A stretch of DNA of 59,568 bases, counting the filler, from Basidiobolus meristosporus CBS 931.73 (taxonomy: Eukaryota > Fungi > Basidiobolomycota), in assembly GCA_002104905.1 (NCBI GenBank). It is 3 parts of 3 records of this genome, joined end to end, with 100 filler letters (N's around TTAATTAATTAA, not from the genome) between each part and the next. Parts side by side here need not be neighbours in the genome. Positions count along the whole stretch, not along the records: positions 17,177 to 47,184 come from MCFE01000856.1; positions 47,285 to 59,568 come from MCFE01001246.1; 1 more part is not named here. The stretch is one strand, 5' to 3'. Positions within the stretch are counted from its first letter, which is position 1, and the number at the start of each line of letters is the position of its first letter. Both the position numbers and the translations under genes were made by a program. This document shows positions 4,044-51,571 of this stretch, piece after piece. The notes beneath the pieces were generated by a model, which saw only the letters and a program-made list of their open reading frames with translations, did no database searches and had not been told where the DNA came from.

Positions 4044-4125
4044 ACGGAACAAGTCTATTAAGTGAGAAACACATAATCTACTTGTACTCCCAATCACTTC
4101 CAATATCTCCAAGACTCTCACAACA

Positions 4126-14000: not shown

Positions 14001-15781
14001 TTTGCCATATGAACATCCTTTACAAACATTCAATTTGATTGGAATTGAGTATTTTAGGCCCAAAACAAGCTGATTTTTCACCAATTGGCTCATTTTCTGT
14101 TCCCCTATGTGTCCTAGCCTCCTATGCCACGTCTCCCAGTTGGTTTCATCGGTTTCAGCAATGTTGACATACTCAGGTACAATGATCTTGCATTGTAACT
14201 TGTATATATTGTGATCTCTGATTCCCGAAGCTAATTTTTGTCCATTTTCACTCAATATTGAGCAGCTCAGCTTAGTAAAAACGAATTTCAGTCCCTGAGT
14301 AGTTGCTTTACTGACTGAGAGTAGGTTCTTAGCTATTCCAGGTACATAGAGTACGTCAGTCAGTTTTGCTGTTGTTGCCCCTGAGTTATCACTCATATTT
14401 AGTTGTATGGACCCACTGGCGGTAGCTTCCAATGCAGAGTTATCTCCCAGATAAACCTTTCTTACGGGAATAGTCTTTAAGTTGCTGAACCAATCCTTTA
14501 TACCACAAATATGCTGTGATGCTCCAGAGTCAATATACCATTCATTACTTCGGTTACTTGCACTCTCTTGTACAGTGACAAATAGCTGTTCATCAGTAGT
14601 TATATGGTTTGCCTGCTCTAGTTTCTGTTTTTCGTCTGCTTGTTTCTTCTTGCATTCTCTTGCCCAGTGTCCTGGCTTCTTACAGTAGTTACAGCAGCCA
14701 GGTTTTCTTCGGTTTTGTTGCTTTCCCTTCTTTTCTGTATGCCTTTCTGAACTGAATAAAGCATTATCTTCAATTTTCTCTGCTTGGTCATTACGTCTGA
14801 GTTCTTCATGGAGAAGTCTTCCTTTGACATAGTCTAAAGTCAAGTTGTCTTCTCTGCTTTCAAAAGAAAGTATGAGTGGCTCATACTCGTCTGGTAGGCT
14901 GCAAAGCAGACAGAGTATCTTTTCTTCATCATCTACACCAGCATTAATACTGTAAAGTTCTTCTGCAAGTGTCTCCATTCTGGTAATGAGTTGTAGCATG
15001 TCATCATCTGGCTTTTTCTCATGTTGAAGAACTTTCGTTTCAAATAAAGCTTGCTTGATACTGACTTTGCTCTAAAGATCTTCTCCAAGGATTCCCATGC
15101 TGCTTTGGCAGTATTTGAGGCATGGATTTGTCCAATGAAGGAGTCTTGCACATTGATGCATATTGCATTGAAGGCCTTTCTCTCCTTCTCTTGAAACTTC
15201 TCCACATCTTCTGCTGTTCCTTTGGGCTCAACTTCCTTTCCTGTTACTATATTCCAAAGCTTTCTTTCCTCAAGGTGGATCTGCATCTTGATTCTCCAAA
15301 GTCTGTAGTTCTTCCCATCAAACCTCTCCTTTACAGGGAAGATGTTGGTATTGCTTTGTTTGCTGGTAGAAGTCATCTTTAGAATAGGTTAAGGCAATCG
15401 GGGCTCATAACCTGTTGCAATTTAAGAAGTGATTTGGATATAAGGAACTTATCAAGAAATAGTGATAATAGTTGAACTGTTGTTTATTCATAAAGAAGCT
15501 CAGTATTTATACCTTTGTAGAAGTAATACAGCTGCAACACTAAGTAGGGAGGGTTTCTCAATATTCAGGAGCATTCTGTAACAGTTTCAGGGTTAGTACA
15601 TAATGTTTGGTAATAGTGCTAATTTGATCCTGACTATAGGGGAATAATCATGAGATCATATATCTGGAGAAAGTGGCGAAGTAAAGGCAGTAAATGAGTC
15701 CTACAGTGACTAAGACTAGCCTAGAATTGTTAAGTAAATTTTTAGCTGCTGAATGATACCAAATAGTCCAATATTTCAACA
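11097..15781 (-). mobile_element. Near-intact Ty1/copia retrotransposon
   Basis: 369-bp TG...CA LTRs at 11097-11465 and 15413-15781 (2 differences seen), 5-bp TSD GAAAA, PBS GGTTATGAGCCC at 15401-15412, PPT at 11466-11477, gag-pol interior. Confidence 0.97.
11460..15376 (-). CDS. Copia gag-pol polyprotein (one frameshift near 15010)
   Basis: Gag 14933-15376 joins ORF 11460-14999 with zinc knuckle CNYCKKPGHWAREC, protease WYIDSGAS, integrase HRRLGH/DICGPM/SDNGGEY, RT YVDD, RNase H SDSDWG/DNQSCI. Confidence 0.93.
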
Positions 15782-16114
15782 GAAAACTCACTGGAATATT
15801 GCAAGGATTTATTGCAAAGACTGGCAGCTGAGGTGCTAGACATTGCGGTGCTGGCTGAAGAACAGGATGTGTGGGAACCAGTGAATGAACAGTAGCATAA
15901 AGTTGTTGGGCTCCCACTAAAGTTGTGTAATCAGAATGTCAGAGCAGAAATATTTATTGAGTGGTAGATTTTGATGGAGTTACTTGTTGAGTGTGGGGTT
16001 GGGCTTAATGATAGTGTAGGGTATAGGGACTTGTATAGGTCAATACTATTGGCAAGTGAGGTATAACTGAAGTTTCAACGGAAATAAGTCAATTTGTACT
16101 CATGAAAAGTAAGA

Positions 16115-17076
16115 CTACAGTGACTAAGACTAGCCTAGAATTGTTGAGTAAATTTTTAGCTGCTGAATGATACCAAATAGTCCAATATTTCAACACTCCT
16201 CCACAACTAAATAATTTCTTAATCCCAATTTCTCTCTAAGGATCTCAAACTGTGGCCTAGCTAGTGGTTTTGTCAATATGTCTGCCACCATTTTGTCAGT
16301 TGGGCAGTAAACCAGCTCCACTAAGTAATTTTCTACAGCTTCCCTCACAAAGTGATGCTCTATATCAATGTGCTTAGTTCTGGCATGATTAGTAGGATTT
16401 CTAGCTAATGAAATACAACTTTGATTATCCTTGTAAATACATGTTGGTTCACCTGAATTAAAACCTAAGTCTTTGAATAATTTTCATAGCCATATAGCCT
16501 CCTTAGTTGCCTGACATGCCGCCATATATTTGGCTTCAGTTGTAAATAGTGCCACAGTTGGTTGTTTCTTACAATTCCAAGTAATAGCTGCACCAGCATA
16601 AAGAAATACATAGCCTGTGGTAGAGCATCTGTCAATCAGATCCCTACCCCAATCTGAATCACTATAACCATCAAATTCTCGCCTATTAGCTGCTCCAGAG
16701 TATTCCAGTACCATATTTATGGTACCTTGTAGATATCTGAAAATCCGCTTAACTGCTGCAATTTGATCTGATCCATAATTCTGCATGAGTTGACTGACTA
16801 TTCCAACTGCTACTGCAATATCTGGACGTGTAGACACCATCAAGTACATTAGGCTACCAACTATTGATTGATAGGGAAAGTTTTGGTCCATATTTGAGCT
16901 GTTTTCATCTATAACTGGCTGAGATTTGCTTAATTTCAGGTTATTGTCCATAGGGGTTGAAGAGATCCGATTTCGTCTGTTTAAGTGCCTCTTGATCACT
17001 TGTAGCTATAATTAGGTCATCCACATAAAGAACTAGGATGATCACACCCTTTTTGAGTTGTTTCAAATATATACTG
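16115..17076 (-). mobile_element. Second, deleted copy of the same copia (partial LTR + RNase H/RT end)
   Basis: Partial LTR 16115-16195; interior aligns to 11466-12500 with a ~150-bp internal deletion near 16960; runs into the gap. Confidence 0.92.
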
Positions 17077-17176
17077 NNNNNNNNNNNNNNNNNNNNNNNN
17101 NNNNNNNNNNNNNNNNNNNNTTAATTAATTAANNNNNNNNNNNNNNNNNNNNNNNNNNNNNNNNNNNNNNNNNNNN
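17077..17176. other. Artificial contig-joining linker
   Basis: 44 N + TTAATTAATTAA + 44 N; an identical structure lies at 47185-47284. Confidence 0.97.
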
Positions 17177-23178: not shown

Positions 23179-23264
23179 CGCAGATGCTCTTTGTAAACAG
23201 GCATCGGAGTCCAGCTCTTCAAGTCTCCCACTAAAGCACTTTCATTTGCACCTTCATCATCACA

Positions 23265-26200
23265 ATGACTGCCTTTATGAACAACGTTTCCACTGCTTCC
23301 AACGGAGGAATAATGAAGAAGGCTCTTATTATGATGATGATCTCCCCACTGTTCACATCAAGCAATGTCATGGCCCTACCCTCTTTCGAAAGTAACGAGG
23401 TTATGATGGCCGAGGATATGGTTGATGGTCGCAGCGATTTTCTAGGTGCAAATAATCGGGCATTCGAGCAGCTCTTCAAGAGACAACAAACTGAAGAAAC
23501 TGCAAGTGCTGATGTGGGAAGGGCTACTTCTGATATTCAAGAAGCTACCAAGCGTGATCTTTATGAAGTGGAGATGACTGATGTTGAGGCTGAACTTCTC
23601 GAGAAGTTCATGAAGCTTAATACAAAGAACATTGTACCATTGCTGAAGAAGTATGTTCCGCTCCTCAAGACTTTTGCACCCAACTACCTGAACCTCACTG
23701 TCAAGGATCTCTTGAAGAAGCTCGGTCTTCACAAGCACCTTGTCACTCTTGGTCTTGACGAGGCTCCAGCCCCAGCTCCAGTTGAGGGAGGCGAGAACTA
23801 CAGCAAGCGTGACCTCTATGAGGTTGAGATGACTGACGCTGAAGCCGAAGCTTTCGGAAAACTCAAGCAGCTCATTCCCAACGTCAAGAAGCTTGTTCCT
23901 TTGTTGAAGACATATGGTCCAATCATCAAGGCCATGGCTCCCAACTACCTGAACCTCACTGTCAAGGACCTCTTGAAGAAGCTCGGTCTTCACAAGCACC
24001 TTGTCACTCTTGGTCTTGATGAGGCTCCAGCCCCAGCTCCAGTTGAGGGAGGCGAGAACTACAGCAAGCGTGACCTTTATGAGGTTGAGATGAGTGATGC
24101 TGAAGCTGAGGCTTTCGAACGGTTCAAGAAGCTTATTCCCAACACCAAGAAGTTCATTCCTATGTTGAAGAAGTACATTCCGCTCCTCAAGACTTTTGCA
24201 CCCAACTACCTGAACCTCACTGTCAAGGACCTCTTGAAGAAGCTCGGTCTTCACAAGCACCTTGTCACTCTTGGTCTTGATGAGGCTCCAGCCCCAGCCC
24301 CAGTTGAGGGAGGTGAGAACTACAGCAAGCGTGACCTTTATGAGGTCGAGATGAGTGATGCTGAAGCTGAGGCTTTCGGTCAACTCAAGAAACTTCTTCC
24401 CAACGTCAAGAAACTTGTTCCAATGTTGAAGAAGTATGTTCCGCTCCTCAAGACTTTTGCACCCAACTACCTGAACCTCACTGTCAAGGACCTCTTGAAG
24501 AAGCTCGGTCTTCACAAGCACCTTGTCACTCTTGGCCTTGACGAGGCTCCAGCCCCAGCTCCAGTTGAGGGAGGTGAGAACTACAGCAAGCGTGACCTTT
24601 ATGAGGTTGAGATGACTGACGCTGAAGCCGAAGCTTTCGGAAAACTCAAGCAGCTCATTCCCAACGTCAAGAAGCTTGTTCCTTTGTTGAAGACATATGG
24701 TCCAATCATCAAGGCCATGGCTCCCAACTACCTGAACCTCACTGTCAAGGACCTCTTGAAGAAGCTCGGTCTTCACAAGCACCTTGTCACTCTTGGTCTT
24801 GATGAGGCTCCAGCCCCAGCCCCAGTTGAGGGTGGTGAAAACTATAGCAAGCGTAACCTTTATGAGGTTGAGATGAGTGATGCTGAAGCCGAAGCTTTTG
24901 GAAAACTCAAGCAGCTTGTCCCTTTGTTGAAGACATATGGTCCAATCATCAAGGCCATGGCTCCCAACTACCTGAACCTCACTGTCAAGGATCTCTTGAA
25001 GAAGCTCGGTCTTCACAAGCACCTTGTCACTCTTGGTCTTGACGAGGCTCCAGCCCCAGCCCCAGTTGAGGGAGGTGAGAACTACAGCAAGCGTGATCTC
25101 TATGAGGTTGAGATGACTGACGCTGAAGCCGAAGCTTTCGGAAAACTCAAGCAGCTCATTCCCAACGTCAAGAAGCTTGTTCCTTTGTTGAAGACATATG
25201 GTCCAATCATCAAGGCCATGGCTCCCAACTACCTGAACCTCACTGTCAAGGACCTCTTGAAGAAGCTCGGTCTTCACAAGCACCTTGTCACTCTTGGTCT
25301 TGACGAGGATCCAGCCCCAGCCCCAGTTGAGGGAGGTGAGAACTACAGCAAGCGTGACCTCTATGAGGTTGAGATGAGTGATGCTGAAGCCGAAGCTTTT
25401 GGAAAACTCAAGCAGCTTGTCCCTTTGTTGAAGACATATGGTCCAATCATCAAGGCCATGGCTCCCAACTACCTGAACCTCACTGTCAAGGATCTCTTGA
25501 AGAAGCTTGGTCTTCACAAGCACCTTGTCACTCTTGGTCTTGACGAGGCTCCAGCCCCAGCCCCAGTTGAGGGAGGCGAGAACTATAGCAAGCGTGACCT
25601 CTATGAGGTTGAGATGAGTGATGCCGAAGTCGAAGCCTTTGGAAAACTCAAGCAGCTTATTCCTAAACTCAAGAAACTCATTCCTCTGTTCAAGAAGAAA
25701 TCCTCTCTCAAAGCTGCCGCTTCCAAAGCAGGCAAGGGCCCAGTCAAACGCGACCTCTATGAGGTTGAGATGACTGACGCTGAAGCCGAAGCTTTCGGAA
25801 AACTCAAGCAGCTCATTCCCAACGTCAAGAAGCTTGTTCCTTTGTTGAAGACGTATGGTCCAATCATCAAGTCCATGGCTCCCAACTACCTGAACCTCAC
25901 TGTAAAGGACCTCTTGAAGAAGCTCGGTCTTCACAAGCACCTTGTCACTCTTGGTCTTGATGAGGCTCCAGCCCCAGCTCCAGTTGAGGGAGGTGAGAAC
26001 TACAGCAAGCGTGACCTCTATGAGGTTGAGATGAGTGATGCTGAAGCCGAAGCTTTCGGAAAACTCAAGCAGCTCATTCCCAACGTCAAGAAGCTTGTTC
26101 CTTTGTTGAAGACATATGGTCCAATCATCAAGGCCATGGCTCCCAACTACCTGAACCTCACTGTCAAGGATCTCTTGAAGAAGCTCGGTCTTCACAAGCA

Positions 26201-26396
26201 CCTTGTCACTCTTGGTCTTGATGAGGCTCCAGCCCCAGCCCCAGTTGAGGGAGGTGAGAACTACAGCAAGCGTGAAGTTATCCCTGGTCGTGATGATGGT
26301 CAAGAGACATCAAAAGAAACCGACTTGGGAGGCCCCACTCCTGGAAATCCCAACGATGAAGAGGCTGCCAAGAAAAAAGCTGAAGTCAAAGCTTGA
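23265..26396 (+). CDS. Secreted Kex2-processed repeat polyprotein (KEP) with 11 cationic amphipathic peptide units
   Basis: Single-exon 1043-aa ORF; hydrophobic leader from the ATG at 23313 (MKKALIMMMISPLFTSSNVMA); 11 KR-delimited units (23556-26273), each with acidic DLYEVEMxDAEAEA, a Lys/Leu-rich core and mostly an acidic DEAPAPAPVEGGENYSKR tail. Confidence 0.9.
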   Translation: MTAFMNNVSTASNGGIMKKALIMMMISPLFTSSNVMALPSFESNEVMMAEDMVDGRSDFLGANNRAFEQLFKRQQTEETASADVGRATSDIQEATKRDLYEVEMTDVEAELLEKFMKLNTKNIVPLLKKYVPLLKTFAPNYLNLTVKDLLKKLGLHKHLVTLGLDEAPAPAPVEGGENYSKRDLYEVEMTDAEAEAFGKLKQLIPNVKKLVPLLKTYGPIIKAMAPNYLNLTVKDLLKKLGLHKHLVTLGLDEAPAPAPVEGGENYSKRDLYEVEMSDAEAEAFERFKKLIPNTKKFIPMLKKYIPLLKTFAPNYLNLTVKDLLKKLGLHKHLVTLGLDEAPAPAPVEGGENYSKRDLYEVEMSDAEAEAFGQLKKLLPNVKKLVPMLKKYVPLLKTFAPNYLNLTVKDLLKKLGLHKHLVTLGLDEAPAPAPVEGGENYSKRDLYEVEMTDAEAEAFGKLKQLIPNVKKLVPLLKTYGPIIKAMAPNYLNLTVKDLLKKLGLHKHLVTLGLDEAPAPAPVEGGENYSKRNLYEVEMSDAEAEAFGKLKQLVPLLKTYGPIIKAMAPNYLNLTVKDLLKKLGLHKHLVTLGLDEAPAPAPVEGGENYSKRDLYEVEMTDAEAEAFGKLKQLIPNVKKLVPLLKTYGPIIKAMAPNYLNLTVKDLLKKLGLHKHLVTLGLDEDPAPAPVEGGENYSKRDLYEVEMSDAEAEAFGKLKQLVPLLKTYGPIIKAMAPNYLNLTVKDLLKKLGLHKHLVTLGLDEAPAPAPVEGGENYSKRDLYEVEMSDAEVEAFGKLKQLIPKLKKLIPLFKKKSSLKAAASKAGKGPVKRDLYEVEMTDAEAEAFGKLKQLIPNVKKLVPLLKTYGPIIKSMAPNYLNLTVKDLLKKLGLHKHLVTLGLDEAPAPAPVEGGENYSKRDLYEVEMSDAEAEAFGKLKQLIPNVKKLVPLLKTYGPIIKAMAPNYLNLTVKDLLKKLGLHKHLVTLGLDEAPAPAPVEGGENYSKREVIPGRDDGQETSKETDLGGPTPGNPNDEEAAKKKAEVKA

Positions 26397-38352: not shown

Positions 38353-39413
38353 GGCAAGCTAGGACGATATGTTGAACTTCTGGATGGTGAGAATAATCCT
38401 TTAGATAGTCGTATCATTATCAACCAGCTGGCCCGTGTTTGAAGGTTGCTTGACATTAGACAACATATTGGAATCTAATGATAATGATAGAAATAAAGAC
38501 AAGCGGCATTTGTATCAGAGTTATTGCTTTAACCATTAGGCTGCTTGGTCCACTTAGGTTGTAACCCGTCATAGACAATGTACTTGGCGTGTCTCCTAGA
38601 CTCGGATCCTCGTCATCGTACCCAAATTTTGATCAGAACAGTGGGGACCATGTGCGGTTTGTTTACACTCTTTCGGGATGCACCGATACATACAAAGACC
38701 GAGAATATTAGATAAGTTTGGTTCGAAAAGTTTCTTCGTTGATACGGATGTACCGGAGAGGGGAATTCTGGCATTGACGTGATATTATTTCGAATAATAC
38801 GACAACCCCCGCTCTCTCGGTATCTGCAGATCTCATATATAGAGCGCTTTGTCAATGGCTGCAGGGTATTTGAAGAATCCTGAATCCATCAACAGGATAA
38901 GTGCTCCATGAAATCAAATCAAAGAGCGCAATCTCAATGATTAGTATAGTTAGGTTAATATTCAAATCCAGCATTATACAAGTTACCACGGTAATTACTA
39001 GTTTCAGTGGAGGTGGGAATTGGCGCAAACGGTTGCGCCTCCCGGTTTGATGTGGTCTTGATATGCATAGTAGCTGCATGGCTCCATGGCACATGTGTTT
39101 CTGCCAAGAAGGGAATTCCTATATCAGAGTAGCCCACAGTTGCCTAGCCTCATGGAAACTATCAGTAGTTGTAGGTTAGACAGAATCAGGTTTTGGCAAA
39201 ACCTAGCAACCGTTGAGGCTGCTTGGTGTTGATTGGCTGTTCTTCAAGTTCTGTCGTACAACCGGATCTTCTCTGAATACCAACGATAAATCTCGTGTAA
39301 CGAACAAACATCACAGGGTTTCCAGGTTTTTGGAGGCCGCACTTATATAAGGTCAGAATGGTTTCTCCATCTCGATCCATCCCAGCTTTTATCCAACACA
39401 TCCTATTTGTTCA

Positions 39414-40328
39414 ATGTCCAAGAAGCCATCTACATCTCACAGCCAAGCTGAAGTCTTTACTACTCAGCCAACTAGCAATGTAATGTCAAAGACGTTCGCC
39501 AAAGAAATCCCGGTAAAGCCTGTCACTGGGTTCTATGGGGTTGCCATGCAGAACTTGGGAAGCATATTTGGAGCATTTGGCTCGATTCCTGGGTGTTTCT
39601 GCTGCCCCAATCCCAACAAGGAGGTAGATCAAGGGTATGTTGGTCTAGTCTCTCGATTTGGCCGAGTCTACAAATGCGTGGATCCGGGCCTCACCACTGT
39701 GAATGTCTTCACCGAGAGACTTCATAGAGTCGACGTTAAAGTGCAAATTGCCTTGATTGAGGACATACGCATTATGACTAAGGATAATGTGAATATCAAA
39801 ATTGACGCGGTTGTCTACTATCACGTAGTGGACCCATATCAGGCATTATTCGGGGTTAGCAACGTTCGCCAAGCTCTGATTGAGCGCACACAAACCACAC
39901 TTAGAGGGGTGCTCGGAACAAGAGTCCTCCAAGACTGTATCGAGAATCGGGAGACAATTGCGGATGACATCCGTGAGATGATCGACATCCCAGCCAGAGA
40001 GTGGGGTGTCACCATTGAATCCATCTTGATTAAGGATCTTGAATTCTCCAAGGAGCTGCAAGAGTCGCTTTCTAGTGCAGCCACTCAAAAGAGAATCGGT
40101 GAATCGAAGGTGATATCTGCTCAAGCCGAAGTTGATTCGGCTAAGCTGATGCGCGAGGCAGCTGAAATTCTCAACACTCCGGCAGCTATGCAAATTCGTT
40201 ATCTCGAAACTCTAAGTTCGATGAGCAAGAACACTGGGACAAAGGTGATTTTCATGCCCCTTGAGCATGGTTCGAGTAGTAATGCTGTCCACAAGGCAGT
40301 ACTCCAAAACCAAATGACCGAGTTGTAA
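39414..40328 (+). CDS. Stomatin-like SPFH/band 7 protein
   Basis: 304-aa ORF; VDQGYVGLVSRFG, TKDNVNIKIDAVVYY, AQAEVDSAKLMREAAEIL, AMQIRYLETL. Confidence 0.95.
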   Translation: MSKKPSTSHSQAEVFTTQPTSNVMSKTFAKEIPVKPVTGFYGVAMQNLGSIFGAFGSIPGCFCCPNPNKEVDQGYVGLVSRFGRVYKCVDPGLTTVNVFTERLHRVDVKVQIALIEDIRIMTKDNVNIKIDAVVYYHVVDPYQALFGVSNVRQALIERTQTTLRGVLGTRVLQDCIENRETIADDIREMIDIPAREWGVTIESILIKDLEFSKELQESLSSAATQKRIGESKVISAQAEVDSAKLMREAAEILNTPAAMQIRYLETLSSMSKNTGTKVIFMPLEHGSSSNAVHKAVLQNQMTEL

Positions 40329-40938
40329 CAATGTATATGTAAGCTAATTTTGTAGCTGTTGATTCCCCTTTATTCTGCTGTACCTCTCGTAGTATACTTG
40401 TTTATGATGATGTAACTATGCCATATTTACCTAGCTGTACACCAAATAGCTCTAATAGTTACCACCTATATGTATATTAATTATACCCAGCTATAACTGC
40501 ATTTTAATCCCGGCTTTTGAATACTCTTCTTGTCTGCATTAGGTATAGCAGTGTTTTATCAGGTATTCATATATTAAATTTGTCATATATTTAGCACAAG
40601 AAAGTAGGTAGTATACTGAGTACTGTACTTGCATTATGAGGGTGCTATATATCACATGGGCTCTTTGGCCATCTCTGGGGCTTTTCATGTTCTGGGTACC
40701 TGATGTATTGGTGAGATATTCTAAGTAAATCCCATCAAGCAATTTAGGCAGACTTCTCTAAGATTAGTAAACAATGATCCAAGTGACTAAGTAAACGGAG
40801 TATATAGGTGTAAAGCAGTATGTACAGCACTCCCAGTCACCTGACTATTCCTATTAACTAGGCCTAACTATAATATAGGTGTTCAGATCTGTCTCTGGTT
40901 TACAGCTTTAAGATAGCCTCATTACAGCCAGCCACTTG

Positions 40939-41945
40939 GGGTTAGGGGAGGGAGACAGACACCAACAGGTGGAATCTTTATTTCAGTTGAAACAAAGTAG
41001 CCAGCACTACTGTTGTAGCTTTGATACAAGAGTGTGTAGCTGAGGGGAATTTGTAGGTAAGTTAATAAGAAGTGATGATAGTTCTTCAGTGCTCAAGACA
41101 CTGTTCAGTGGGAAGGGGGTAGCAAGAGAGGTAAAAATGACTTGTGAACAACATTAATGAGGGGAATGTGATAAGGATTGATATTCATCATAAAGGGAGT
41201 GTGCTGCTGCAGATATTGCTGCCAAAGGTCTGTCAAGTACTTCAGGTAGGCCAGCTTGGGTTTTCTGACTGCAGAATATAATGAGCAAACTTCTTGACTT
41301 CAGGATCTCCAAGTATAGTTCTCCAGCAGGAGCCAGGTGTTGTGTGGTGTGTTCTCTTCCAGGCCTTAATCAGTGGGTTGTTGCAGTTGTGAAGTCTGAG
41401 GTATAATCTGGTTCTAAGGTAGAGAAGTCTGATCTTATAGAGCATAAACCCAAAAGCACCAAGAATAGCATGTCTGTAGGGGCATTCAGGCAGATGAGGC
41501 ACCAAGGAGGTAATGCACCATACTGCAAACTTGTCAAGCTTAGTGCAGTCTCTAGAAGTAAGAGAGAGAAGTGGTAAGCCAAATTCCAGGACAGAGAAGA
41601 CAAACTGCTTGAGTAGAAGGAGGCAGCTGGGAGCTGAAGTTGTAGGAGGAGTAACAGCCAGTAGCTTGTGGAGTGCCTGTCTTGCCAGGATAATTCTCTT
41701 CTTCAGGTGTGCTCCAGAGTCTAGTCCAGTAGGAAGGAAAGGAAAGCCAAGATATGTAGCAGAAACCTGAGCAGGTAGAGTGGAGTTCTCCAAGTTGATG
41801 GGAGAGCCCAAAGGTACTGTCTTTGCAATGGAAAGCTGGAGATTATTCTTCTGCAGATACTGGTGGATGGTCTGGGAGTCTTGTTGCACATTGGAGGAGG
41901 ATATTCTGATGTCATCAGCAAAGAGAGTAACCAGGCAGTCAGCTG
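40939..41945 (-). mobile_element. Telomeric non-LTR unit D (5'-truncated RT, frameshifted)
   Basis: SLFADDI...YLGFPF... homologous to units B and C; 3' motif at 40939-41003 ending CCCTCCCCTAACCC on the minus strand. Confidence 0.8.
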
Positions 41946-42878
41946 AGAGGGTGTAGGTGTTATAGTAAGGGCTAGGAAAAGGTTAGAAGAGTAGGGGGTC
42001 TGGGGGATGCAGTCCCCTAGAGAATAAAAAAGCAGGGGGTTTGGGGGATGCAATCCCCCATACTGCTCCCATACTCTTTAAATTCCTGTTGGATTACTTT
42101 TCTCTCATTCTTGGTTCTGGTCCCTTAGGGTTAGAATTCCTCCTCCTAACCCTTATCACCCTAACCATAAATATTTTTACCCTACAATTGGCACATTGTC
42201 TGCTCATATAGTGGGCATGTCTGGGCCAATATTTGTCTCCCTATACTGTCCATATGCTCTGTATAAGTCTTGATGACTATTTAATTAATAAATTGTTACT
42301 TTTAATGTATATGTAATAATTAATGGGATTCATCCCAATCTGGCCACAATCCCATATTTTGATAAGCTTTGGGCACCATAAATTGCGTGGCCCTAATATG
42401 ATAAAAAAATTCATGGCCAAGACAAATTTTCTGTAACCCGATTGCTTTTACCAAATATAAAGTGTATCCCAAAGTTCAATATATATTATGGCTATAATAG
42501 AAACTTTATTTGACACCATTGCAACTACTACTTATGTTCTATGTGCACATGTATCCCGCAGGAATTGTAAAACTTAGCCATGTGGTACAAAAGTGCTTTT
42601 ATTTTTCATCATGATAGTTTTACATGAGTCCCTAACATACTTTTATAGTGCGCAGTAACCATACCCCCAGAAAGTAGTGTGGATGCTTACTTTAAACGCT
42701 CACTTGTGTATTGTACAAACTATCAACAAACAGCTGCGTGGGAATGGAACATCATAGAAAAGCATTGCTTTGTTGTTAGCAAGTATTGATGCGCAAATAG
42801 TGGTACTATGTGAATTATTGAGTAACTATTTACTCTAGTTGGTTCCAAGATATTCCTAGACAATATGCTCAAAATCAC

Positions 42879-44201
42879 TTAGGAGGGGGGGGGGAACCAC
42901 CGGTTGGTGTAATCTTTATTGTCAATCATTGTGAAAATAAAGAAGTCAGGGATTGATTCTGGAGTCTTGTAACATATTTGTACAGACACTTTGGGTTAAT
43001 ATGTAGATAGGTTGCTATTTCTTGTAGTTCCTCTGCATTGAATAGAGTGTTGAGAGGGAGTGGCGGTAGCACTAGTAATAATAACTGATGATCTATGTAT
43101 TGTGATGTGCTTTTGCCAATTGGTGATATAAAGCAAAGAAATGGGGTTTGCTGAGTTACATACTCTTGCCATAGTTGATTAAGATACTTGCTATATGCTT
43201 CTTTGGGGTTTTTACTCCCCTCTATTGCTTTGGCAAATTGCTGGACTTTTGGGCACCCAATGATAGTTGCCCAACAGGAGTTATTTTGAAGCATCTTGCA
43301 AGAAATCCATGCTTGTATCAACTCATTTGTTGATTTATGGAGTTGAATATGTAGTCTTGTACGGAGGTACAAAATTCTAATTGAATAAGGGAGTAGTCCA
43401 AAAGTTGCCAGGACTGCGTGGTGATACTGTGTTGGTGGGAGCCATGGTAATAAAGTATAAATGCTGTGAGAAACAAACTTGTCCAGTTTTGTCAGGTATC
43501 TTGTTGGAATAGGCATTATTGCCAATCCAAACTCCAGTACTGGGAGCACAAACTGCTTGAGTAACAAGTGACATTGGCTCAAAGGTATATCTGGTGGTGT
43601 AACAGAGACTAACTTGTGTAAAGCATGCCGTGCAAGTGCTATTTGCCTCCACACATGTGCTTTTACATCCAGACCAGATGCAGTAAACAGAAGCCCTAGA
43701 TAGATGACAGTTTCTGCTGGGCGTAGAGTTTGAGAGTTCAGCATAATACTGCATCCAACTGGCTTGGTTTTTGCCATTGAGAGACTAAGATTGTTTTGTG
43801 TAAGGTAGCTGACAATCAGGTTAGAGTCTTTTTCCAAATTACTGGAAGAGATACAAATATCATCTGTGTATAAGGTTGTAAGCGCAGAGGCTTCTAAGGC
43901 AGGAAAGTTGTTCATAAAGATGGCAAATAGTAGAGGGCCTAGTACAGATCCCTGCACTACCCCATTTGGAACATCATAAGTGGTAGATTGCATATTTGGA
44001 TGCAAAATGTAGGCCTTTGAGTCCTGATATAAAGCCATGATAAGAGCTGTAATTGTAGGTCCAGCAAAAGCTTCAGGTTTTCTCCAAAGTAGGTTACGGT
44101 CAACTGCATCAAATGCATGGGTAATATCCAAGAGTACTGCTGGAAATTTGTTACAGAGTGTGTGGTCATGGCTTAGCATGACAGCCATTTCTAGCAAGAC
44201 T
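42879..44201 (-). mobile_element. Telomeric non-LTR unit C (5'-truncated RT)
   Basis: ORF 42926-44197 with DITHAFD, GVVQGSVLGPLLF, LYTDD, YLG; 3' motif at 42879-42947. Confidence 0.87.
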
Positions 44202-45926
44202 TTAGGGGAGGGAAAGTCACCAAGTCGGTGAAATCTTTATTTGAGTTAAGAACTAATCTAAGTACAAATAAAGAAGCCAATTAAGAGGTCTAGAACCTCT
44301 CTAATAAGTAATCTAATTTATGTTTTGTTTCATCTCTAATGTTTGTTTCAATAAAGTAAAGCTCATCAGGGGTAAATATAAAATTCAGGGGTTTTGGGGG
44401 AAGTACAAATTGTAGATGTTTCTGATCAATATAATCCAAGACTGGAACCCAGCCTGGGATTAGGTGTAGTAGGAAAGGTGTGTGGACTTGTAAGTAGCTC
44501 TGCCACATAGATCTTAGATGGTTCTGAGCCAGTAGTCTTGGTTTCTCAGCTTTTTGAAGTTTTGAAGCAAGCTCTGTTACTACAGCAGAGCCAACCAGGT
44601 TGTGCCAGCAAGAAGATTTTAGGGAGGAGTTAGATTGAAGCCATTGTTTGATGGAGGGGTTATGTGATTTCTGATGTTTGACTAGGAAGGAAGCACGGAG
44701 ATAGATCATTCGGATTTGGTATGGGTAGAACCCAAAGGCTCCATTAGTTGCATGGATATAGGGAGATACTGGAAGATAAGGTACCAAGGATCTGATACAC
44801 TGATGGAGAAATTTATCCAGGCGGTGAAGCTCTCTGGAGGTTAGGGGTATAATGTGGAGACCAAATTCAAGTACCGGCAGTACATACTGCTTCAGAAGTA
44901 TAGGGATCTTTTGAATTGGAGTGTCTGGAGTGACTACTACTAGAAGCTTTTTGAGAGCCTGTTGGGCAAGACGGATCCTATTATTCAGGTGGAGCTTTGA
45001 GTCAATCCCATGTTGACAAAATGGCAGACCTAGATACATTGCAGTTTGTTGTGGCAGAATGCTAGTGTTCTGTATAGTTGTAGTGCACCCAATTGGGACT
45101 GTCTTGGAAATTGAGAGTGAGAGGTTGTTGGCAGCCAAGTACTTCTCAATGTTGGCAGTGTCTGCTATGGGATTAGGAGTAGCAATCTTGATATCATCCG
45201 CATAGAGAGTTAGTAGTGGATAGGGAGAGTCTGGTGAGGGGCCTTTTGGAAATAAAGGAAAGTCATGTAGGAGTATCACAAATAGTAAGGGACCTAGTAC
45301 AGATCCTTGGACTACTCCATTTGGAACCTCATAAGTCTCTGATGTGCAACTTGGATGCAAAATTTTGGCTGAGTTCTCACAAAATAGAGAACGTACAAGA
45401 AGGGTCATTGGTAGTGTGGTAACTGCTAATAGCTTTCTCCAAAGCAGAGCTCTGTCCACAGAGTCAAAGGCTTTAGTAATGTCAAACAGAATGGTTGGCA
45501 ATGAGAATTGAAGTGAATGATCATGGCTTAGCACTACAGCCATATCCAAGGAGAGTTTGGGCATGAAGCCAAACTGAGAAGGATGGAATGGATATAGTTG
45601 AGATTGCAAGGATCTTGCTATTATAAGCTCAAAGATTTTCAGGCAGGTTGGTAGGAGTGAAACTGGCCGGTAAGAACCTGGGAGTGAGTGTTTCCCCTTC
45701 CTTTTGTATAAGGGTATTACATTTGCCTGTGACCAGGCCTTTGGGGTAGTCAATTGTTGGGCACAGATAGAGTAGAATGGGATAAGTAAGTGACTCATTT
45801 TGGAGTAGCACACCCGGAGTAGATTGTAGGTAATCAAGTCATGTCCAGGTGCCGTATTTGCAGGAAGCTTCTTTAAAATTTTCTCCAGAAGCTTTGCTGA
45901 AATCAAAATTGGAGATGTTGGACTGC
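44202..45926 (-). mobile_element. Telomeric non-LTR unit B (LINE-type reverse transcriptase, no endonuclease present)
   Basis: Open frame 44290-45926: APGHDLITY, YRPVSLL, QFGF, DITKAFD, GVVQGSVLGPLLF, LYADD, YLG; 3' motif at 44202-44279. Confidence 0.9.
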
Positions 45927-46955
45927 TTAGGGTTAGGGGAGGGAAAGTCACCAAAGTAGGTGAAATCTTTATTTGATTTCAGACAAGTCTAACTACAAAT
46001 AAAGAAGCCAGCTGGGAATAGAAGATTCCCAAAGTAAAAACTAAGTTGAATATGAATAAATCTAAGCTAAAGTTAAGGCAGTATCCCAGAGTACACTGGA
46101 GTTCAGGTTCATGGGGGAGTGAAGTAGATAAGCTTGAGAGATATAATAATCTTTCAGGAAGTGGGTAACAGCAGGTGAAGGGGAGTTTTTGATAAGTGAA
46201 GTGAATCTTGAGAGCAGAGATTCCTCTAATGAGAAGGTCTTGTAAACTGGAGAATCAGGAAACTCTTTAAAGGCATGGTCAGTAGGTTCCCAGTAAAACT
46301 GGTCAGAGACATTTTCAGAGAATTGTGTTGCAATACTTTTGTCAAGTACTACCTCCAGAGTGTGATGGTTGATAAATCTCATGTTAACAATTTTGGATAA
46401 ATTGTAACCTTGTTGCTTGAGATACATCCTATGCTCAGATATGGGAATAAACTCCACATTGGCAAAGTAGCAGACAGTCCAGTCTGTAGCAGGAGGTAAA
46501 TCAGAAGTGGCAGGAAACTTTCTTTTAGTCTTGGGAGGAGCAGCAGCATGTCTTGAGGAAGCAGGAACAGGCTTTTTGACAGCTTCAGAGTAGGAAGAGT
46601 GAGCAGGAGCAGGTGATTCTTGGGGAGTCTTGTTGACAGGAAGAGTTGGCACAGGGACAATAGATTCTTGCAGATCAGAAAAGGCAGAGAACAGCTTTTG
46701 AACTTGTTTCTTGAGTAAAGCATTTTCAGCTTCAACAAGTGCAAGCCTTTCCTCAAGGAAGGAAATCTGAAGGGAATGGAGTGAAGGCATAAGATATAAG
46801 AAGAAGAGGGTTGGATGGGGTGGGTGGGTGGGAAAATTAGCAGGGAGAAGAGAAGGAAGGAGCAAAAATTCCAGAAGTCAGAATTTATAGATGGATGGAC
46901 AAGGGTAGATGGATGGATTATTCCTGGGTTAGGAAAATTAGCAGGGAGAAGAGAA
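45927..46955 (-). mobile_element. Telomeric unit A carrying only an ORF1/gag-like gene
   Basis: ORF1-like CDS followed directly by the shared 3' motif (45927-46010) ending in CCCTAACCCTAA; abuts the telomere. Confidence 0.75.
46062..46790 (-). CDS. Non-LTR ORF1-like protein (coiled coil + SYSEAVKK + RRM-like region)
   Basis: ATG at 46790; LEERLALVEAENALLKKQVQKL heptads; SYxxA motif common in LINE ORF1; no CCHC knuckle. Confidence 0.65.
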   Translation of the reverse strand: MPSLHSLQISFLEERLALVEAENALLKKQVQKLFSAFSDLQESIVPVPTLPVNKTPQESPAPAHSSYSEAVKKPVPASSRHAAAPPKTKRKFPATSDLPPATDWTVCYFANVEFIPISEHRMYLKQQGYNLSKIVNMRFINHHTLEVVLDKSIATQFSENVSDQFYWEPTDHAFKEFPDSPVYKTFSLEESLLSRFTSLIKNSPSPAVTHFLKDYYISQAYLLHSPMNLNSSVLWDTALTLA

Positions 46956-47184
46956 GGGTTAGGGTTAGGGTTAGGGTTAGGGTTAGGGTTAGGGTTAGGG
47001 TTAGGGTTAGGGTTAGGGTTAGGGTTAGGGTTAGGGTTAGGGTTAGGGTTAGGGTTAGGGTTAGGGTTAGGGTTAGGGTTAGGGTTAGGGTTAGGGTTAG
47101 GGTTAGGGTTAGGGTTAGGGTTAGGGTTAGGGTTAGGGTTAGGGTTAGGGTTAGGGTTAGGGTTAGGGTTAGGTTAGGGTTAGG
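46956..47184 (+). repeat. Telomere (TTAGGG)n, ~38 units
   Basis: Uninterrupted GGGTTA array at the contig end (one TTAGG variant), G-rich strand pointing outward. Confidence 0.98.
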
Positions 47185-47284
47185 NNNNNNNNNNNNNNNN
47201 NNNNNNNNNNNNNNNNNNNNNNNNNNNNTTAATTAATTAANNNNNNNNNNNNNNNNNNNNNNNNNNNNNNNNNNNNNNNNNNNN
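47185..47284. other. Artificial contig-joining linker
   Basis: 44 N + TTAATTAATTAA + 44 N. Confidence 0.97.
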
Positions 47285-47679
47285 CTAAACCAAAAGGTTC
47301 AGTAAGCTTTATTTATACTCTTCTGACTGAGTTGCATTAGTAGGTGCCAAGAGACTGGACTAATGGAAATCTGTTGGGGTGCTGATAGGTGCATAAAATA
47401 AATGAAAAATTGCATCATTCATCAGCTGATGTCTTGGCAACTGCTAAGTGGTTGGATAAATCTCAGATGACCAATCACTTGGAAAGGCTTAGCAGATCAG
47501 TTGAGGATGTAATGACCACATGAAAATTGATCAGGTGTGACAGCTAAATATAGATTCTGAGAAGTGATAAAATAAACCATAACAGGGATTAGTTATGTTT
47601 GGGTTAGGGAAAATCAGTTAGGGTACTAGATTTTCTAACCAAGTGAAATTGGCCAAGTTTTAAATGTTGATGCACAACA

Positions 47680-47972
47680 AGAGGAATCTCTGCTCTCAAG
47701 ATTCACTTCACTTATCTAAACTCCCCTTCACCTGCTGTTACCCACTTCTTGATAGATTATTATATCTCTCAAGCTTATCTACTTCACTCCCTCTATCAAC
47801 CTGAACTCCAGTGTACTCTGGGATACTGCCTTAACTTTAGCTTAGATTTATTCATATTCAACTTAGTGTTTACTTTGGGAATCTTCTATTCCCAGCTGGC
47901 TTCTTTATTTGTAGCTAGACTTGTCTGAAATCAAATAAAGATTTCACCTACCTTGGTGACTTTCCCTCCCCT
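47680..47972 (+). mobile_element. Dispersed fragment of telomeric unit A (ORF1 3' end + 3' motif)
   Basis: Near-identical reverse complement of ~45936-46226; homology stops at ...GACTTTCCCTCCCCT. Confidence 0.88.
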
Positions 47973-48049
47973 GAGACAAATTTGAATATCTTAAGTCCAA
48001 ATTAGGCCTAATCAGCATAAACATTTAGTTGTGTGGGAGTGTTATAAGA

Positions 48050-48385
48050 ATTTGTAATTCCACTTAAATATTCACCCAGCTTAGTCACTTAGATCATTAC
48101 CTACAAATCTTAGAGAATAGTGACCTAATTTCTTGTTGGAATTTACCTAGAATATCCTCACCAAAATATCAGGTACCCAGAACATAAAATTCTTAAAGTT
48201 GTCTAAACAGCCTCAGACTTTGCACACATACTCTTGGGAATTTTTTGAGCCTATTTATGTGTTTGCTATGCCAAGACCATATATAAGTATAAGTACTACT
48301 TTACATTCAATAAATCATGAAGTGGATACTACATAATCTACTTGTTTTCCCAATCACTTCCAATATCTCCAAGACTCTTACAGCA
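48050..48385 (+). repeat. Solo LTR of the degenerate copia family
   Basis: Reverse-complement homolog of 7261-7600. Confidence 0.7.
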
Positions 48386-49099
48386 ATACAAAGTCAGAGA
48401 AGTTTTGCCTAAGAGTGGTACAAATAGGAGTGTCAAATAATGAGCAAATCTCAGGCAAAATCCAATTATTACAATGTTTTTGACTGGCCACAAGTACCTT
48501 GTTAGTATACAGCTCTTTAGCCTCATTTCCTAGGTATCTTTCAGTCAAGGTAGCTTAGACAGCTCATTATTGGAGTGGACAGTGCTCATCAAATAAGCAC
48601 TCATTAGTGACAATAGTTTAAATGCAAAATGTTGTAAATTTGGTAATTATACTTGGATGTTCACCCAACTTAGTCACTTGGATCATAGTTAACAAGTACT
48701 GGACAGACCGACCCAAGCTTCTTATTTGAGTTTATTTAGAATTTTTTCAACAAAACTTTAGGTTAACAGAATCAAATATATGCCAAAGTTACCCAAACTG
48801 CCTGAAACTTGGTACATGGACTGTTTTTACCTTTTCAATTTGTTTTACATGTTTTCTTTGTCAATGATGTGTAAAAGTATCAATATTACTTTTGCATTCA
48901 AGCAATCCTCAGGTGAAAGACCATGTATTGACTTGTCTTGCAATCACTTCCAATATCTCCAAGACTCTAGCATCATCAAAGAAGCTGAATAGGATTCTGC
49001 TACAGATTTCTTGTATGAAATCTTGGGATTTCAATAAAACCTCTGTAAGGCTCACCTCTGTGTATATTTTCTAAGTTCTTGTTGGGCTGTATACCTTGA

Positions 49100-49428
49100 G
49101 ATTACACCTAAATATTCACTTGACTTGGTCACTTAAATTTTAGCGTAAAAGTCTTAGAGTACTCAACTGAAATTCCTTGTCAAGGCTCAATAATATTTCA
49201 CCAAAATATTAGGTATGCACAATATTAAGAATAGACAGGCTGTTCAAAGTGCCCCAAGCTTTAAATAAATGTTCTTGAGACCTTTTTAAGCATTTTATAT
49301 GTACATACTTTTCCAAGACCATGTAAAATTATAAATACTACTTTCACATTCTATGAATCATCAAGCAAGAGCCACATAGTCTACTTGTTCTCCCAATCAC
49401 TTGCAATATCTTTGAGACTCTTGCAACA
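49100..49428 (+). repeat. Solo LTR of the degenerate copia family
   Basis: Diverged homolog of 48050-48385 ending ...GACTCTTGCAACA. Confidence 0.62.
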
Positions 49429-49873
49429 AGTTAGTGGTGTATGGTGGTAAGTTAAGGGCAAAACAATGAAATCAACTTAATGGATTCACCAAGTAATGAA
49501 TAGAGTTATATACACATATGATAAGGCCCCATATAATATTTCTGATTTGGATTGAAATCTCTTATTTGTTGAATCGAGGCAAAAGACACGCTGCATCAAC
49601 ATTTTCCTCGTGCACTTCATTGAATCAGAAGTAATGTCATAGGGACTCCAATGTAGCACTAATGATCAATAGTTAATGGAATTCACCACATGCCCTGAAT
49701 CAAAAAACCTCCTTCATTGCGCCAATCCCCATCGGATGGTCAACCACCCAAGATCAACATCTTAGGGCAAATGTGCTATTTATTGGGAGCGACCACTACC
49801 AAGGGCCAAGCTTACCACATGTTGTGATACAATAGGAGGAGCTTTAGGACTCGTTTCCTCTTACATAAGAGAC

Positions 49874-50806
49874 TTATTCATACTGGCGGCCGGATCGAGA
49901 ACGAGGATAGTTCTGTTGTCCATTTCTACGGGAAACACCTCTCTCGTACTCATCGTTGTCCAGCTCATCCTGCTCATATTGGTGCCCATAGCGAGAACGA
50001 GGAGAGTTCTGTTGTCCGTTTCTTCCTAAGAATCCTCTCTCGTACTCAGTGTCAGACTCATCTTGCTCATATTGGCGTCCTAAGTGAGAACGAGGGTAGT
50101 TCTGTTGTCCATTTCTACGAGAAATGCCTCCCTCATACTCGTTGTCAAGTTCATCTTGGCGAGAACGGGGGTATTTCTGATGTCTGTTTCTGCCTACGAG
50201 TCCTCTCTCATATTCATCTCGGGAATGGGGATAGTTTTGCTGGCCACTTCTTCCTCTTTGATACTCGTTGTCATAATCATCCTGGTCATACTGACGTCCA
50301 TAGCGAGAGCGAGGATAGTTTTGTGGACCATTTCTGCGGGAATCGTACTCATCATCCTCCTCATACTGGCGGCCAAAGCGAGAACGGGGGTAGTTTTGCT
50401 GGTCGTTTCTTCCTCTTTGGTACTCGTTGTCATACTCATCTTGCTCATACTGACGACTAAAGCGAGAGCGAGGATAGTGTTGCTGGCCATTTCTGCGGGA
50501 AAGACCCCTCTCATACTCATTGTCGAGCTCGTTTTGCTCATACTGACGACCAAAACGCGGGCGAGGATAGTTTTGAAGACCATTTCTACGAGTAACGTCT
50601 CTTTGGTACTCATCATCATACTCACCTCGCTCGTATTTGCGGCCAAAGTGGGAACGGGGGTAGTTTTGCTTACTATCGTTGCCATACTCATCTTGCTCAT
50701 ACTGACGTCCATAGCGAGAGTGAGGGTATTTCTGTTGGTTATTTTTACCGGTCAAGCCATTTTGGTATTCACCGTCAAATTCAAGATGTTGTCTGTTGGA
50801 AGCCAT
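49874..50806 (-). CDS. Low-complexity R/Y/Q/E/D/N-rich repeat protein (310 aa)
   Basis: ATG-to-TAA ORF with ~11 NYPRSR(F/Y)GRQYEQDE repeats; TATAAAAAG ~60 bp upstream. Confidence 0.75.
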   Translation of the reverse strand: MASNRQHLEFDGEYQNGLTGKNNQQKYPHSRYGRQYEQDEYGNDSKQNYPRSHFGRKYERGEYDDEYQRDVTRRNGLQNYPRPRFGRQYEQNELDNEYERGLSRRNGQQHYPRSRFSRQYEQDEYDNEYQRGRNDQQNYPRSRFGRQYEEDDEYDSRRNGPQNYPRSRYGRQYDQDDYDNEYQRGRSGQQNYPHSRDEYERGLVGRNRHQKYPRSRQDELDNEYEGGISRRNGQQNYPRSHLGRQYEQDESDTEYERGFLGRNGQQNSPRSRYGHQYEQDELDNDEYERGVSRRNGQQNYPRSRSGRQYE

Positions 50807-51571
50807 GTTGGAAATGTGTTGCGAAAATAGTCAGTTGATGACAAGTAGAGTCACCAAGATGGACTTTTTATACCGAGAATGAGGCTTAGAGGTAGGTAGT
50901 TGAGCCGAATATCTAAGCCACTTTGACCAGTGGCATTTTCAAGCCAAATTTCCAACAAACCGTAAATTCTATCACGTAATTATCAACTGAGTGGTGCACA
51001 TCATGATTAGAAGGAAATTTATGGCATGAACTCTGAATGATCGCCTTATTAGTGACTAGCACACCCATCCAATTGATATATACTGATACAAATCATCGGT
51101 TAAGTACCATTGCTTGGTTTTTTTGTACTTTGCAAATACCGTGTGCGATACATATCTATCAATGGCTTTTTCTAAACCCAAAATTCACCAATGCAAGGAA
51201 TCCATCAATTCATGTCAACCCCCCCCCATCAGCCGGAACTAAGATTTCTTGGCTCAAAGCACAACTCGCCTTCGGCCTTGACTATTGCTGGCCCTTCGTG
51301 GTTGTTAGAGACTTGATGTTGATTATGACAACGCTTACATCCAAAGTATATTGATGATGTAATATTGTCGGGATGAGATTATTGTCTATCCCGTCCTCAC
51401 TACCGTCCTCACTACACCTATTTGGATAGCGAAATATAAGATTATTGGAGGAATTTGCAAGCATAAACAAATGGTTGATTACATCTGACTAAAAAGGCAG
51501 CATGTGCGAGCATTAATCAGGATAAGATTTAGTATAAATTCTGGGTTCGAGTGCAAGGTTCGTCAATCAAA

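What the first reader, a model, noticed from the sequence alone, without database searches (positions are those of the whole stretch)
40939..47972. Conserved two-hairpin 3' RNA motif ending in a telomere-complementary tail, five copies
Seen at 40939-41003, 42879-42947, 44202-44279, 45927-46010 (minus) and 47897-47972 (plus). The sense strand reads stem1 CTTTATT...AATAAAG (loop 2-21 nt, variable), ATT, stem2 CACC-loop-GGTG, then a pyrimidine tail ...CCC(T)CCCCTAA(CCC). Stems are kept while loops diverge. In unit D a G-U pair works only on the sense strand. Inference: the cis-element that RT recognises, with the CCCUAA tail annealing to the TTAGGG overhang much like a telomerase template.
Basis: partly seen in the sequence, partly recalled or inferred. 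Interest (0 to 1): 0.78.

Follow-up and report, generated by a model that had tools for sequence, protein, structure and literature searches.

The report
Shared RNA tail of telomere-stacking retrotransposons
Five copies of an 80-base motif, predicted to fold into two RNA hairpins, end retrotransposon pieces stacked head-to-tail under a chromosome end of what is likely a Basidiobolus fungus, and the motif likely is the handle by which the reverse transcriptase grips both its own RNA and a partner RNA, while its short telomere-matching tail likely starts copying on G-rich DNA ends through only a few paired bases.

Summary
The motif is real. Its core occurs 5 times against 0.01 expected, all five sense copies fold into the same two hairpins, and a model built from four copies finds the fifth. 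It ends three 5'-truncated LINE RT pieces, a unit coding only an ORF1-like protein, and a fragment of that unit on another contig. Four copies face away from a 38-repeat TTAGGG tract. In a second organism's contigs only the motif matched the stretch tested, and changes fell mostly in loops. Full-length relatives carry an APE-type endonuclease; named relatives are Basidiobolus. The cis-element reading is well supported, by analogy with stringent LINEs and MoTeR1/2. The telomerase-template part is weaker. Tails hold 0-2 repeats, copy E lacks TAA, and many copies abut non-telomeric DNA. Junction overlap is 0-3 nt (P=0.07), so telomerase may have laid the junction hexamers. This scan noted the same system earlier on two other pieces of this genome. 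Verdict: new variant of a known kind; no listing from three paper searches describes it.

The parts
40939..41003 (-). motif copy A: 9-bp stem 1 with a G-U pair and a C-G top pair, 4-bp stem 2, tail with about 1.5 telomere repeats
41004..41947 (-). unit A body: 5'-truncated, frameshifted 3' part of a LINE ORF2 (RT thumb and C-terminus)
41948..42070 (-). unit X: short non-coding repeat with about six degenerate telomere-like hexamers at its 3' end and two G/C hairpins; lacks the two-hairpin motif here; right end approximate
   Evidence: no tRNA
42071..42878 (.). unrelated repeated DNA interrupting the stack; no Pfam match, opposite G skew
42879..42947 (-). motif copy B; overlaps the ORF2 stop codon; tail ends in CCTAA
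42926..44201 (-). unit B: 5'-truncated LINE ORF2 (RT core to C-terminus)
44202..44279 (-). motif copy C: 10-bp stem 1, 5-bp stem 2, one repeat
44290..45926 (-). unit C: open 545-codon piece of LINE ORF2 with the whole RT domain, cut before the endonuclease; longer copies exist in the same organism's contigs
   Evidence: loose end at 45927
45927..46010 (-). motif copy D with two telomere repeats
46062..46790 (-). unit D ORF, 242 aa, no RT; predicted long helix, disordered linker, RRM-like domain and helical end (ORF1p-like layout, low confidence)
46791..46957 (-). 5' leader of unit D with a 26-nt direct repeat (46831 and 46932) and a TATA-like TATAAAT between the copies
46955..47184 (+). (TTAGGG) x 38.5 tract at the contig end, joined directly to the 5' end of unit D
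47680..47972 (+). unit E: 3' 293 nt of a D-type unit (97% identical) with motif copy E at 47897-47972, no TAA, on the next contig

Best explanation
The motif is the shared 3' end of a LINE family and of a partner unit that has no RT; its two predicted hairpins likely are what the LINE's ORF2 protein binds, and its unpaired C-rich tail likely pairs by one to five bases with a G-rich DNA 3' end at or near a chromosome end to start reverse transcription. Shown: the motif ends every unit; units A-D point the same way, with their 3' ends towards the centromere side; bodies are cut at many different 5' positions and followed directly by another unit's tail; a TTAGGG tract caps the stack. Inferred: ORF2 binds the stems in cis and in trans, as in stringent LINEs. 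The primer is an eroded, broken or freshly telomerase-seeded end, or a nick made by the element's own APE domain. Copying starts in the last CCCU(AA) of the RNA. Rounds of addition, truncation and telomerase capping build the array. Copies beside ordinary DNA would be innermost units or internalised relics.
For: Motif, fold and held-out model test. A top pair swaps C-G (A) for G-C (C, D, E), and the G-U changes work on the sense strand only. In contigs of a second organism (X5-X7, one sample) depth is non-zero in 13 of 27 bins, all over the motif (45920-46023), and zero over the RT and ORF flanks. Listed changes there fall mostly in the loops and linker. One loose-end consensus shows stem 1 with one extra U-A pair in both arms and another loop. 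12 of the 15 joints shown (of 140) land in a tail, 10 of them from different body positions, and none of the 15 changes strand. The no-RT unit D is unrelated to ORF2, has a 49%-identical relative in Basidiobolus ranarum and carries the motif. Units have G skew 0.21-0.37 on the telomere G strand against 0.00 upstream. New DNA is compatible with a start at the first T of TTAGGG in 10 of 13 junctions, 4.8 expected, P=0.002. Precedents, read as passages: stem-loop binding by ORF2 (PMC4176376); telomere-like annealing sites after a stem-loop in SART1 (PMC7265360); the MoTeR1/2 shared 77-bp 3' end (PMC7367193).
Against: In-register overlap at 13 junctions is 0-3 nt and not clearly above chance (P=0.068). 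The phase test is biased because the reference tails begin at that T; in three loose-end rows, 11 of 16 contigs start at the A instead. E has no TAA. Loose ends before the tail are varied, A-rich and non-telomeric (agreement mostly 0.5-0.67), so targeting is not strictly to TTAGGG arrays; contigs rich in TTAGGG may however be filtered out as human-like. Only one two-sided pair change is seen among the window copies, too few for a covariation statistic. X1-X3 may be the window's own source sample. Many joint sides are under 30 nt at 80% likeness, which the tool flags as less reliable.
Confidence: 0.55

Rival explanations
1. The hairpins are the RT handle, but the TTAGGG units at junctions come from host telomerase. 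A truncated unit is healed with telomere repeats, the APE domain nicks that tract as TRAS1 does, and only insertions within about two repeats of the boundary survive. The RNA itself would end at CCCUCCCCU.
For: Full-length relatives have an N-terminal APE-like domain. 9 of 13 junctions have a 1-3 nt in-frame seed and 2 of the 4 others end in C. This resembles telomerase healing at truncated MoTeRs: 17 of 23 with seeds, C in five of six exceptions, long interstitial tracts fragile (PMC7367193 passages). The same D position carries the telomere in the window and a C-type tail in another contig.
Against: No junction seen has more than two perfect repeats. An element-encoded degenerate hexamer tail recurs in separate contigs (unit X tail), which shows that telomere-like repeats can be part of the element.
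Confidence: 0.2
2. An ordinary dispersed stringent LINE with a microsatellite-like tail. Head-to-tail chains arise when the RT jumps from the end of one RNA to the 3' end of the next, and the telomere position is incidental.
For: Very high summed depth over A, C and D bodies against 55 on the unique flank (not a copy number). Many non-telomeric flanks. Short or absent overlap and one extra base at the B junction. Copy E lies beside ordinary repeats.
Against: The tail matches this organism's telomere repeat exactly, the stack is capped directly by the telomere tract, and its orientation and G skew match the telomere G strand.
Confidence: 0.15
3. The conserved element controls RNA 3'-end formation rather than RT binding. 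The 3' arm of stem 1 is an AAUAAA hexamer about 35-45 nt before the end, either used as a cleavage signal or hidden by the stem so that transcripts run into the tail unpolyadenylated.
For: AATAAA is invariant in all five copies and the arms are conserved in sequence, not only in pairing.
Against: No poly(A) at any of the five window junctions or in the junction letters shown. Stem 2 and the 5' arm are also kept. The role is compatible with RT binding rather than exclusive of it.
Confidence: 0.1

Closest known systems
MoTeR1/MoTeR2 of Pyricularia (Magnaporthe) oryzae and FoTeRs of Fusarium oxysporum (PMC7367193, PMC12857005; passages read)
   Same: Fungal non-LTR elements in head-to-tail arrays at TTAGGG telomeres, separated by as little as half a repeat; a non-autonomous partner shares a 77-bp 3' end; 5' truncations; telomere-like 3' terminus; internal relics.
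   Different: MoTeR and FoTeR use a REL endonuclease (C-terminal in FoTeR). Here full-length relatives have an N-terminal APE-like domain. MoTeR2's middle has no evident function, while unit D holds an ORF conserved in another Basidiobolus species. The passages read describe no two-hairpin 3' structure.
Stringent-type LINE 3' tails: zebrafish ZfL2-1/ZfL2-2 and eel UnaL2 (PMC4176376; passages read)
   Same: A stem-loop in the 3' tail is needed for retrotransposition and is bound by ORF2; stems are conserved and loops variable; short repeat units follow.
   Different: One stem-loop there, two hairpins here; the terminal repeat here is the host telomere repeat; those elements are not telomeric (recalled).
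TRAS1/SART1 of Bombyx mori (PMC7265360; passages read)
   Same: Endonuclease-bearing LINEs at telomeres; TRAS orientation (C-rich sense strand); in SART1, short telomere-like sequences downstream of a 3' UTR stem-loop are proposed to anneal to the target.
   Different: They insert inside long repeat tracts and SART1 ends in poly(A). Units here abut each other with 0-2 repeats and no poly(A).
HeT-A/TART/TAHRE of Drosophila (PMC5537684; passages read)
   Same: Same-direction arrays with 3' ends towards the centromere; a partner without pol that needs an RT in trans.
   Different: Poly(A) tails and no telomerase in Drosophila; here a perfect TTAGGG tract caps the stack and the shared 3' end is a short structured module.
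Athena (endonuclease-deficient Penelope-like elements; PMC5537684 passage; Coprina recalled)
   Same: Short telomeric repeats at the element 3' end, 5' truncation, addition at uncapped ends.
   Different: The RT here is of non-LTR type (best solved match LINE-1 ORF2p), relatives have an endonuclease domain, and Rfam shows no ribozyme.

Membership tests
APE-type non-LTR retrotransposon (LINE) | non-LTR RT domain | tested here: met
   RVT_1 E 1e-21 in unit C; family profile matches LINE-1 ORF2p at E 2e-22
APE-type non-LTR retrotransposon (LINE) | N-terminal APE endonuclease | tested here: met
   4 of 7 close relatives hit Exo_endo_phos families; only P0001 reaches the curated cut-off (27.5 against 27.4 bits), the others score E 7e-5 to 3e-3. 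GDxN and SDH motifs are visible. The window's own pieces are cut before this domain; activity untested.
APE-type non-LTR retrotransposon (LINE) | variable 5' truncation with a fixed 3' end | tested here: met
   units A, B, C and E, plus 10 further body-to-tail joints
APE-type non-LTR retrotransposon (LINE) | ORF1 upstream of ORF2 on one element; target-site duplications | not testable with these tools
   no genome held and no DNA could be fetched for full-length relatives
stringent-type LINE 3' tail | conserved 3' stem-loop shared with a non-autonomous partner | tested here: met
stringent-type LINE 3' tail | ORF2 binds the stem-loop and needs it to transpose | not testable with these tools
   needs binding and transposition assays
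MoTeR/FoTeR | C-terminal REL endonuclease | tested here: not met
   relatives have an N-terminal APE-like domain and no further Pfam family after the RT near cut-off
MoTeR/FoTeR | head-to-tail telomeric arrays with short TTAGGG spacers and a partner sharing the 3' end | tested here: met
TRAS/SART | insertion inside long telomeric tracts; poly(A) tail | tested here: not met
   0-2 repeats and no poly(A) at all five window junctions; telomere-rich contigs may be filtered out
TRAS/SART | R1-clade RT phylogeny | not tested
   no clade-labelled references were available from the searches
HeT-A/TART/TAHRE | ORF1-only partner | tested here: inconclusive
   unit D has no RT; its model (pLDDT 55) matches RRM folds at Z 7.1, rmsd 2.2, 68 aligned, below the tool's Z 8 bar, and no LINE ORF1p is listed
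HeT-A/TART/TAHRE | replace telomerase repeats; poly(A) tails | tested here: not met
   a 38.5-copy TTAGGG tract caps the array; no poly(A)
Athena/Coprina Penelope-like elements | Penelope-type RT without endonuclease | tested here: not met

The most novel reading that the evidence does not exclude
A split retrotransposon that lengthens chromosome ends beside telomerase. ORF2 and an RNA-binding ORF1 travel on separate RNAs that share a telomerase-RNA-like 3' module: two hairpins for the RT plus a CCCUAA template-like tail. Stem 1 hides an AAUAAA signal so that the RNA ends in the telomere sequence instead of poly(A). This would be an independent fungal origin of the HeT-A/TART layout from an APE LINE.
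Probability: 0.3. Interest if true: 0.75.

Novelty: new variant of a known kind. Interest (0 to 1): 0.52.

Why it matters
Telomere-targeted retroelements in fungi are described from REL-type MoTeR and FoTeR and, as recalled, Penelope-like Coprina. This is an APE-type lineage in an early-diverging fungus with a coding partner that has no RT. The 80-nt module is small, has natural loop and stem variants, and follows a 920-residue ORF2. That makes a long-standing question directly testable in vitro: whether a LINE RT can prime on a telomere end through a few RNA-DNA pairs, as proposed for HeT-A/TART, Athena and the origin of telomerase. Each ingredient has a precedent, which limits the surprise.

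Tried and rejected
No whole genome is held, so the genome-wide placement of copies is open. Related-locus scans found only 6 distant loci (25-47% identity) among 264 stretches in metagenome contigs (not used further) and none among 61 in prokaryote genomes. No RNA holder was listed. Rfam gave no match near gathering score in 40000-49000 (5 weak rows). ARAGORN found no tRNA, so a tRNA head for unit X is not shown. Six-frame read-through of 41990-42878 gave no useful Pfam match; a gag or protease relic there was considered by eye and dropped. An endonuclease-less family was considered from the window alone and rejected once relatives showed the APE domain. D plus C as one ORF1-ORF2 element was rejected: C is cut inside ORF2, and D-type tails join many other positions. 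Global DNA identity between unit bodies (0.54-0.60) was at the shuffled baseline (0.56-0.57) and is uninformative beyond showing divergence. A conserved three-way junction closing both hairpins was looked for by eye and not found. Foldseek gave no match at E <= 0.001 for the D protein; the Atlas search with its homologue gave only unnamed fungal clusters. The sequence look-up among earlier findings was empty. No clade tree was built. No supplementary files were read; MoTeR junction tables there may bear on the telomerase-seed comparison.
Full report
Setting. The window is three contigs joined by N linkers (17077-17176, 47185-47284). The second contig ends in 38.5 copies of TTAGGG. Named relatives of the elements are from Basidiobolus meristosporus (P0002 and P0007, nearly identical to parts of units C and A) and B. 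ranarum (P0276), so the host is likely a Basidiobolus. No genome is held.

Observation. The motif core has 5 exact matches, 0.01 expected. On the sense strand all five copies fold as stem 1 (8-10 bp), a short linker, stem 2 (4-5 bp) and an unpaired pyrimidine tail, z -2.15 to -4.29. The antisense strands score +0.27 to -2.01. With wider flanks the scores were weaker, and E took another fold. A structure model trained on B-E recovers A at 40.3 bits, 10 bits above a sequence-only model, and no sixth copy; the other hits are antisense readings of the same palindromic stems. The pair ladder shows one two-sided change (C-G in A, G-C in C/D/E), a G-U in A, a U-G in D's upper hairpin and a U-C mismatch in B. 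That is consistent with structure but too few events for a covariation test, since D and E are one family (97%). Tails differ: two repeats in D, about 1.5 in A, one in C, CCTAA in B, none complete in E.

What the motif ends. On the minus strand, running towards the telomere, come A (RT 3' piece), X (short repeat), an unrelated repeat, B and C (RT pieces), then D (242-aa ORF, no RT), and the TTAGGG tract on D's 5' end. The motif follows or overlaps the ORF2 stop, so in RT units it is the whole 3' UTR. The homologue search gave 7 close relatives above a background of 24-35% identical LINE RTs; the 50%-cluster search showed the same gap. Four of the seven hit APE-like endonuclease families, one at the curated cut-off, and a loose end shows that C-type copies continue 5' of 45927. 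So the pieces are truncated copies of an APE-RT LINE of about 920 aa, not an endonuclease-less family. The D protein is unrelated to ORF2 and 49% identical to a B. ranarum protein. It is modelled at low confidence (pLDDT 55) as a long helix, a linker, an RRM-like domain and helices (best Z 7.1, under the tool's bar of 8). This is the layout of LINE ORF1p as recalled.

Other copies. Contigs of runs X1-X3 (one sample, possibly the window's source) show 140 joints, 15 listed. Twelve land in a tail, 10 from different body positions, and none of the 15 changes strand. Many sides are under 30 nt. P0002, a gene model from a named 176-kb contig, strings a C-type and two A-type pieces and contains a peptide like the one read through unit X's tail, which suggests another such stack (inference). 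In runs X5-X7 (one sample of a second organism), laid on 45880-46090, depth is confined to the motif (13 of 27 bins). The 3-4 listed substitutions and the 12 of 30 indel rows shown fall in loop 2, loop 1 and the linker, apart from a minor deletion at the edge of stem 2 and one A-to-G in stem 1 that would give U-G, in a contig with 9 gaps. Two contigs match both arms of stem 1 with a shorter loop, and a consensus of 6 contigs (agreement 0.8 in X7, 0.74 in X5 and X6) has one extra U-A pair in both arms. In one search, X5 also matched parts of unit A, unit X and short RT stretches, so the motif is not the only conserved part of the whole stack.

Against a strict telomerase-template model. Loose ends before the tail start at several positions and are varied, non-telomeric DNA (agreement mostly 0.5-0.67; 24 of 108 rows shown); TTAGGG-rich contigs may have been removed as human-like. 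I scored 13 junctions: 10 in the window. Two of the 10 had unknown letters between and were taken as direct. I left out joints at 40988, 41593, 41885, 41982 and 44559, the three non-tail joints, and the window junctions at 40938, 44201 and 47973. In-register overlap was 0-3 nt, sum 16 against 9.9 +/- 3.6 (P=0.068). Ten of 13 fit a start at the first T (4.8 expected, P=0.002), but the references begin there, and 11 of 16 contigs in three rows start at the A. At the B|C junction the tail's CCTAA may also be B's own Pro-Lys codons, since several relatives have P-K at that place; this would be a 5-nt overlap, is inferred, and was not counted. Short seeds and C-ending exceptions are what telomerase healing leaves at truncated MoTeRs (PMC7367193, passages), so the junction hexamers may be host-made.

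Mechanism. Best reading (0.55): a stringent-type 3' handle bound by ORF2 in cis and trans, with priming through a few base pairs on G-rich ends at or near telomeres, and cycles of addition, truncation and capping. The handle part alone I put at about 0.8. Rivals are APE insertion into telomerase-made tracts (0.2), a dispersed LINE with template jumping (0.15), and a 3'-processing role for the AAUAAA inside stem 1 (0.1). Structure is predicted; binding, priming and expression are untested.

Literature. I read passages (term look-ups) of PMC7265360, PMC12857005, PMC10088271, PMC4176376, PMC7367193 and PMC5537684; other papers were seen only as listings. Three searches for Basidiobolus or early-diverging fungi with telomere and retrotransposon terms listed no paper on such elements (3 of 3, 20 of 774 and 20 of 59 listed); the library is limited to open papers. 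Two earlier notes of this scan describe the same LINE, partner and SINE stacks on other pieces of this genome. They are unchecked, gave me the SINE reading of unit X, and are not counted as support.

Verdict. New variant of a known kind; interest 0.52.

Noticed in passing
window 41948-42070: Unit X: a short repeat with about six degenerate telomere-like hexamers and two G/C hairpins. The same degenerate tail is fused to the two-hairpin motif in other contigs and joined to A and D bodies at other positions; it is also matched in the second organism. SINE-like; no tRNA head found.
   Followed up: partly
window 46831-46957: 26-nt direct repeat 101 nt apart at the 5' end of unit D with TATAAAT about 30 nt before the inner copy; may be a self-renewing promoter monomer. 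The end of this repeat carries the telomere here and another unit's tail in a different contig.
   Followed up: partly
window 23235-26396 (+): 1053-codon ORF with about ten 80-87-aa repeats ending in Lys-Arg and rich in Lys/Leu helices; looks like a Kex2-processed repeat precursor of secreted amphipathic peptides. Pfam hits are repeat artefacts.
   Followed up: no
window 49877-50830 (-): Repeat protein with about 31-aa Arg/Gly/Tyr/Gln/Asp-rich units.
   Followed up: no
window 1264-17005: LTR retrotransposon pieces: a long copia pol ORF at 11463-15071, a broken copia at about 4389-7259 and a gag/protease-like pair at 1264-3158.
   Followed up: no
window 40658-40813, 48040-49429, 7263-7616: One repeat family of about 350 nt lies within 70-130 nt of the 3' ends of both unit A and unit E, in the same orientation relative to the unit; a subtelomeric repeat or a preferred neighbourhood.
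   Followed up: no
P0121, P0127: Two members of these LINE protein clusters are labelled Bacteroides fragilis on contigs of 1561 and 727 nt; probably eukaryotic contamination in a bacterial assembly.
   Followed up: no
window 39351-40328 (+): An intact stomatin (Band 7) gene lies about 600 nt from the innermost unit, about 6.6 kb from the telomere tract.
   Followed up: no
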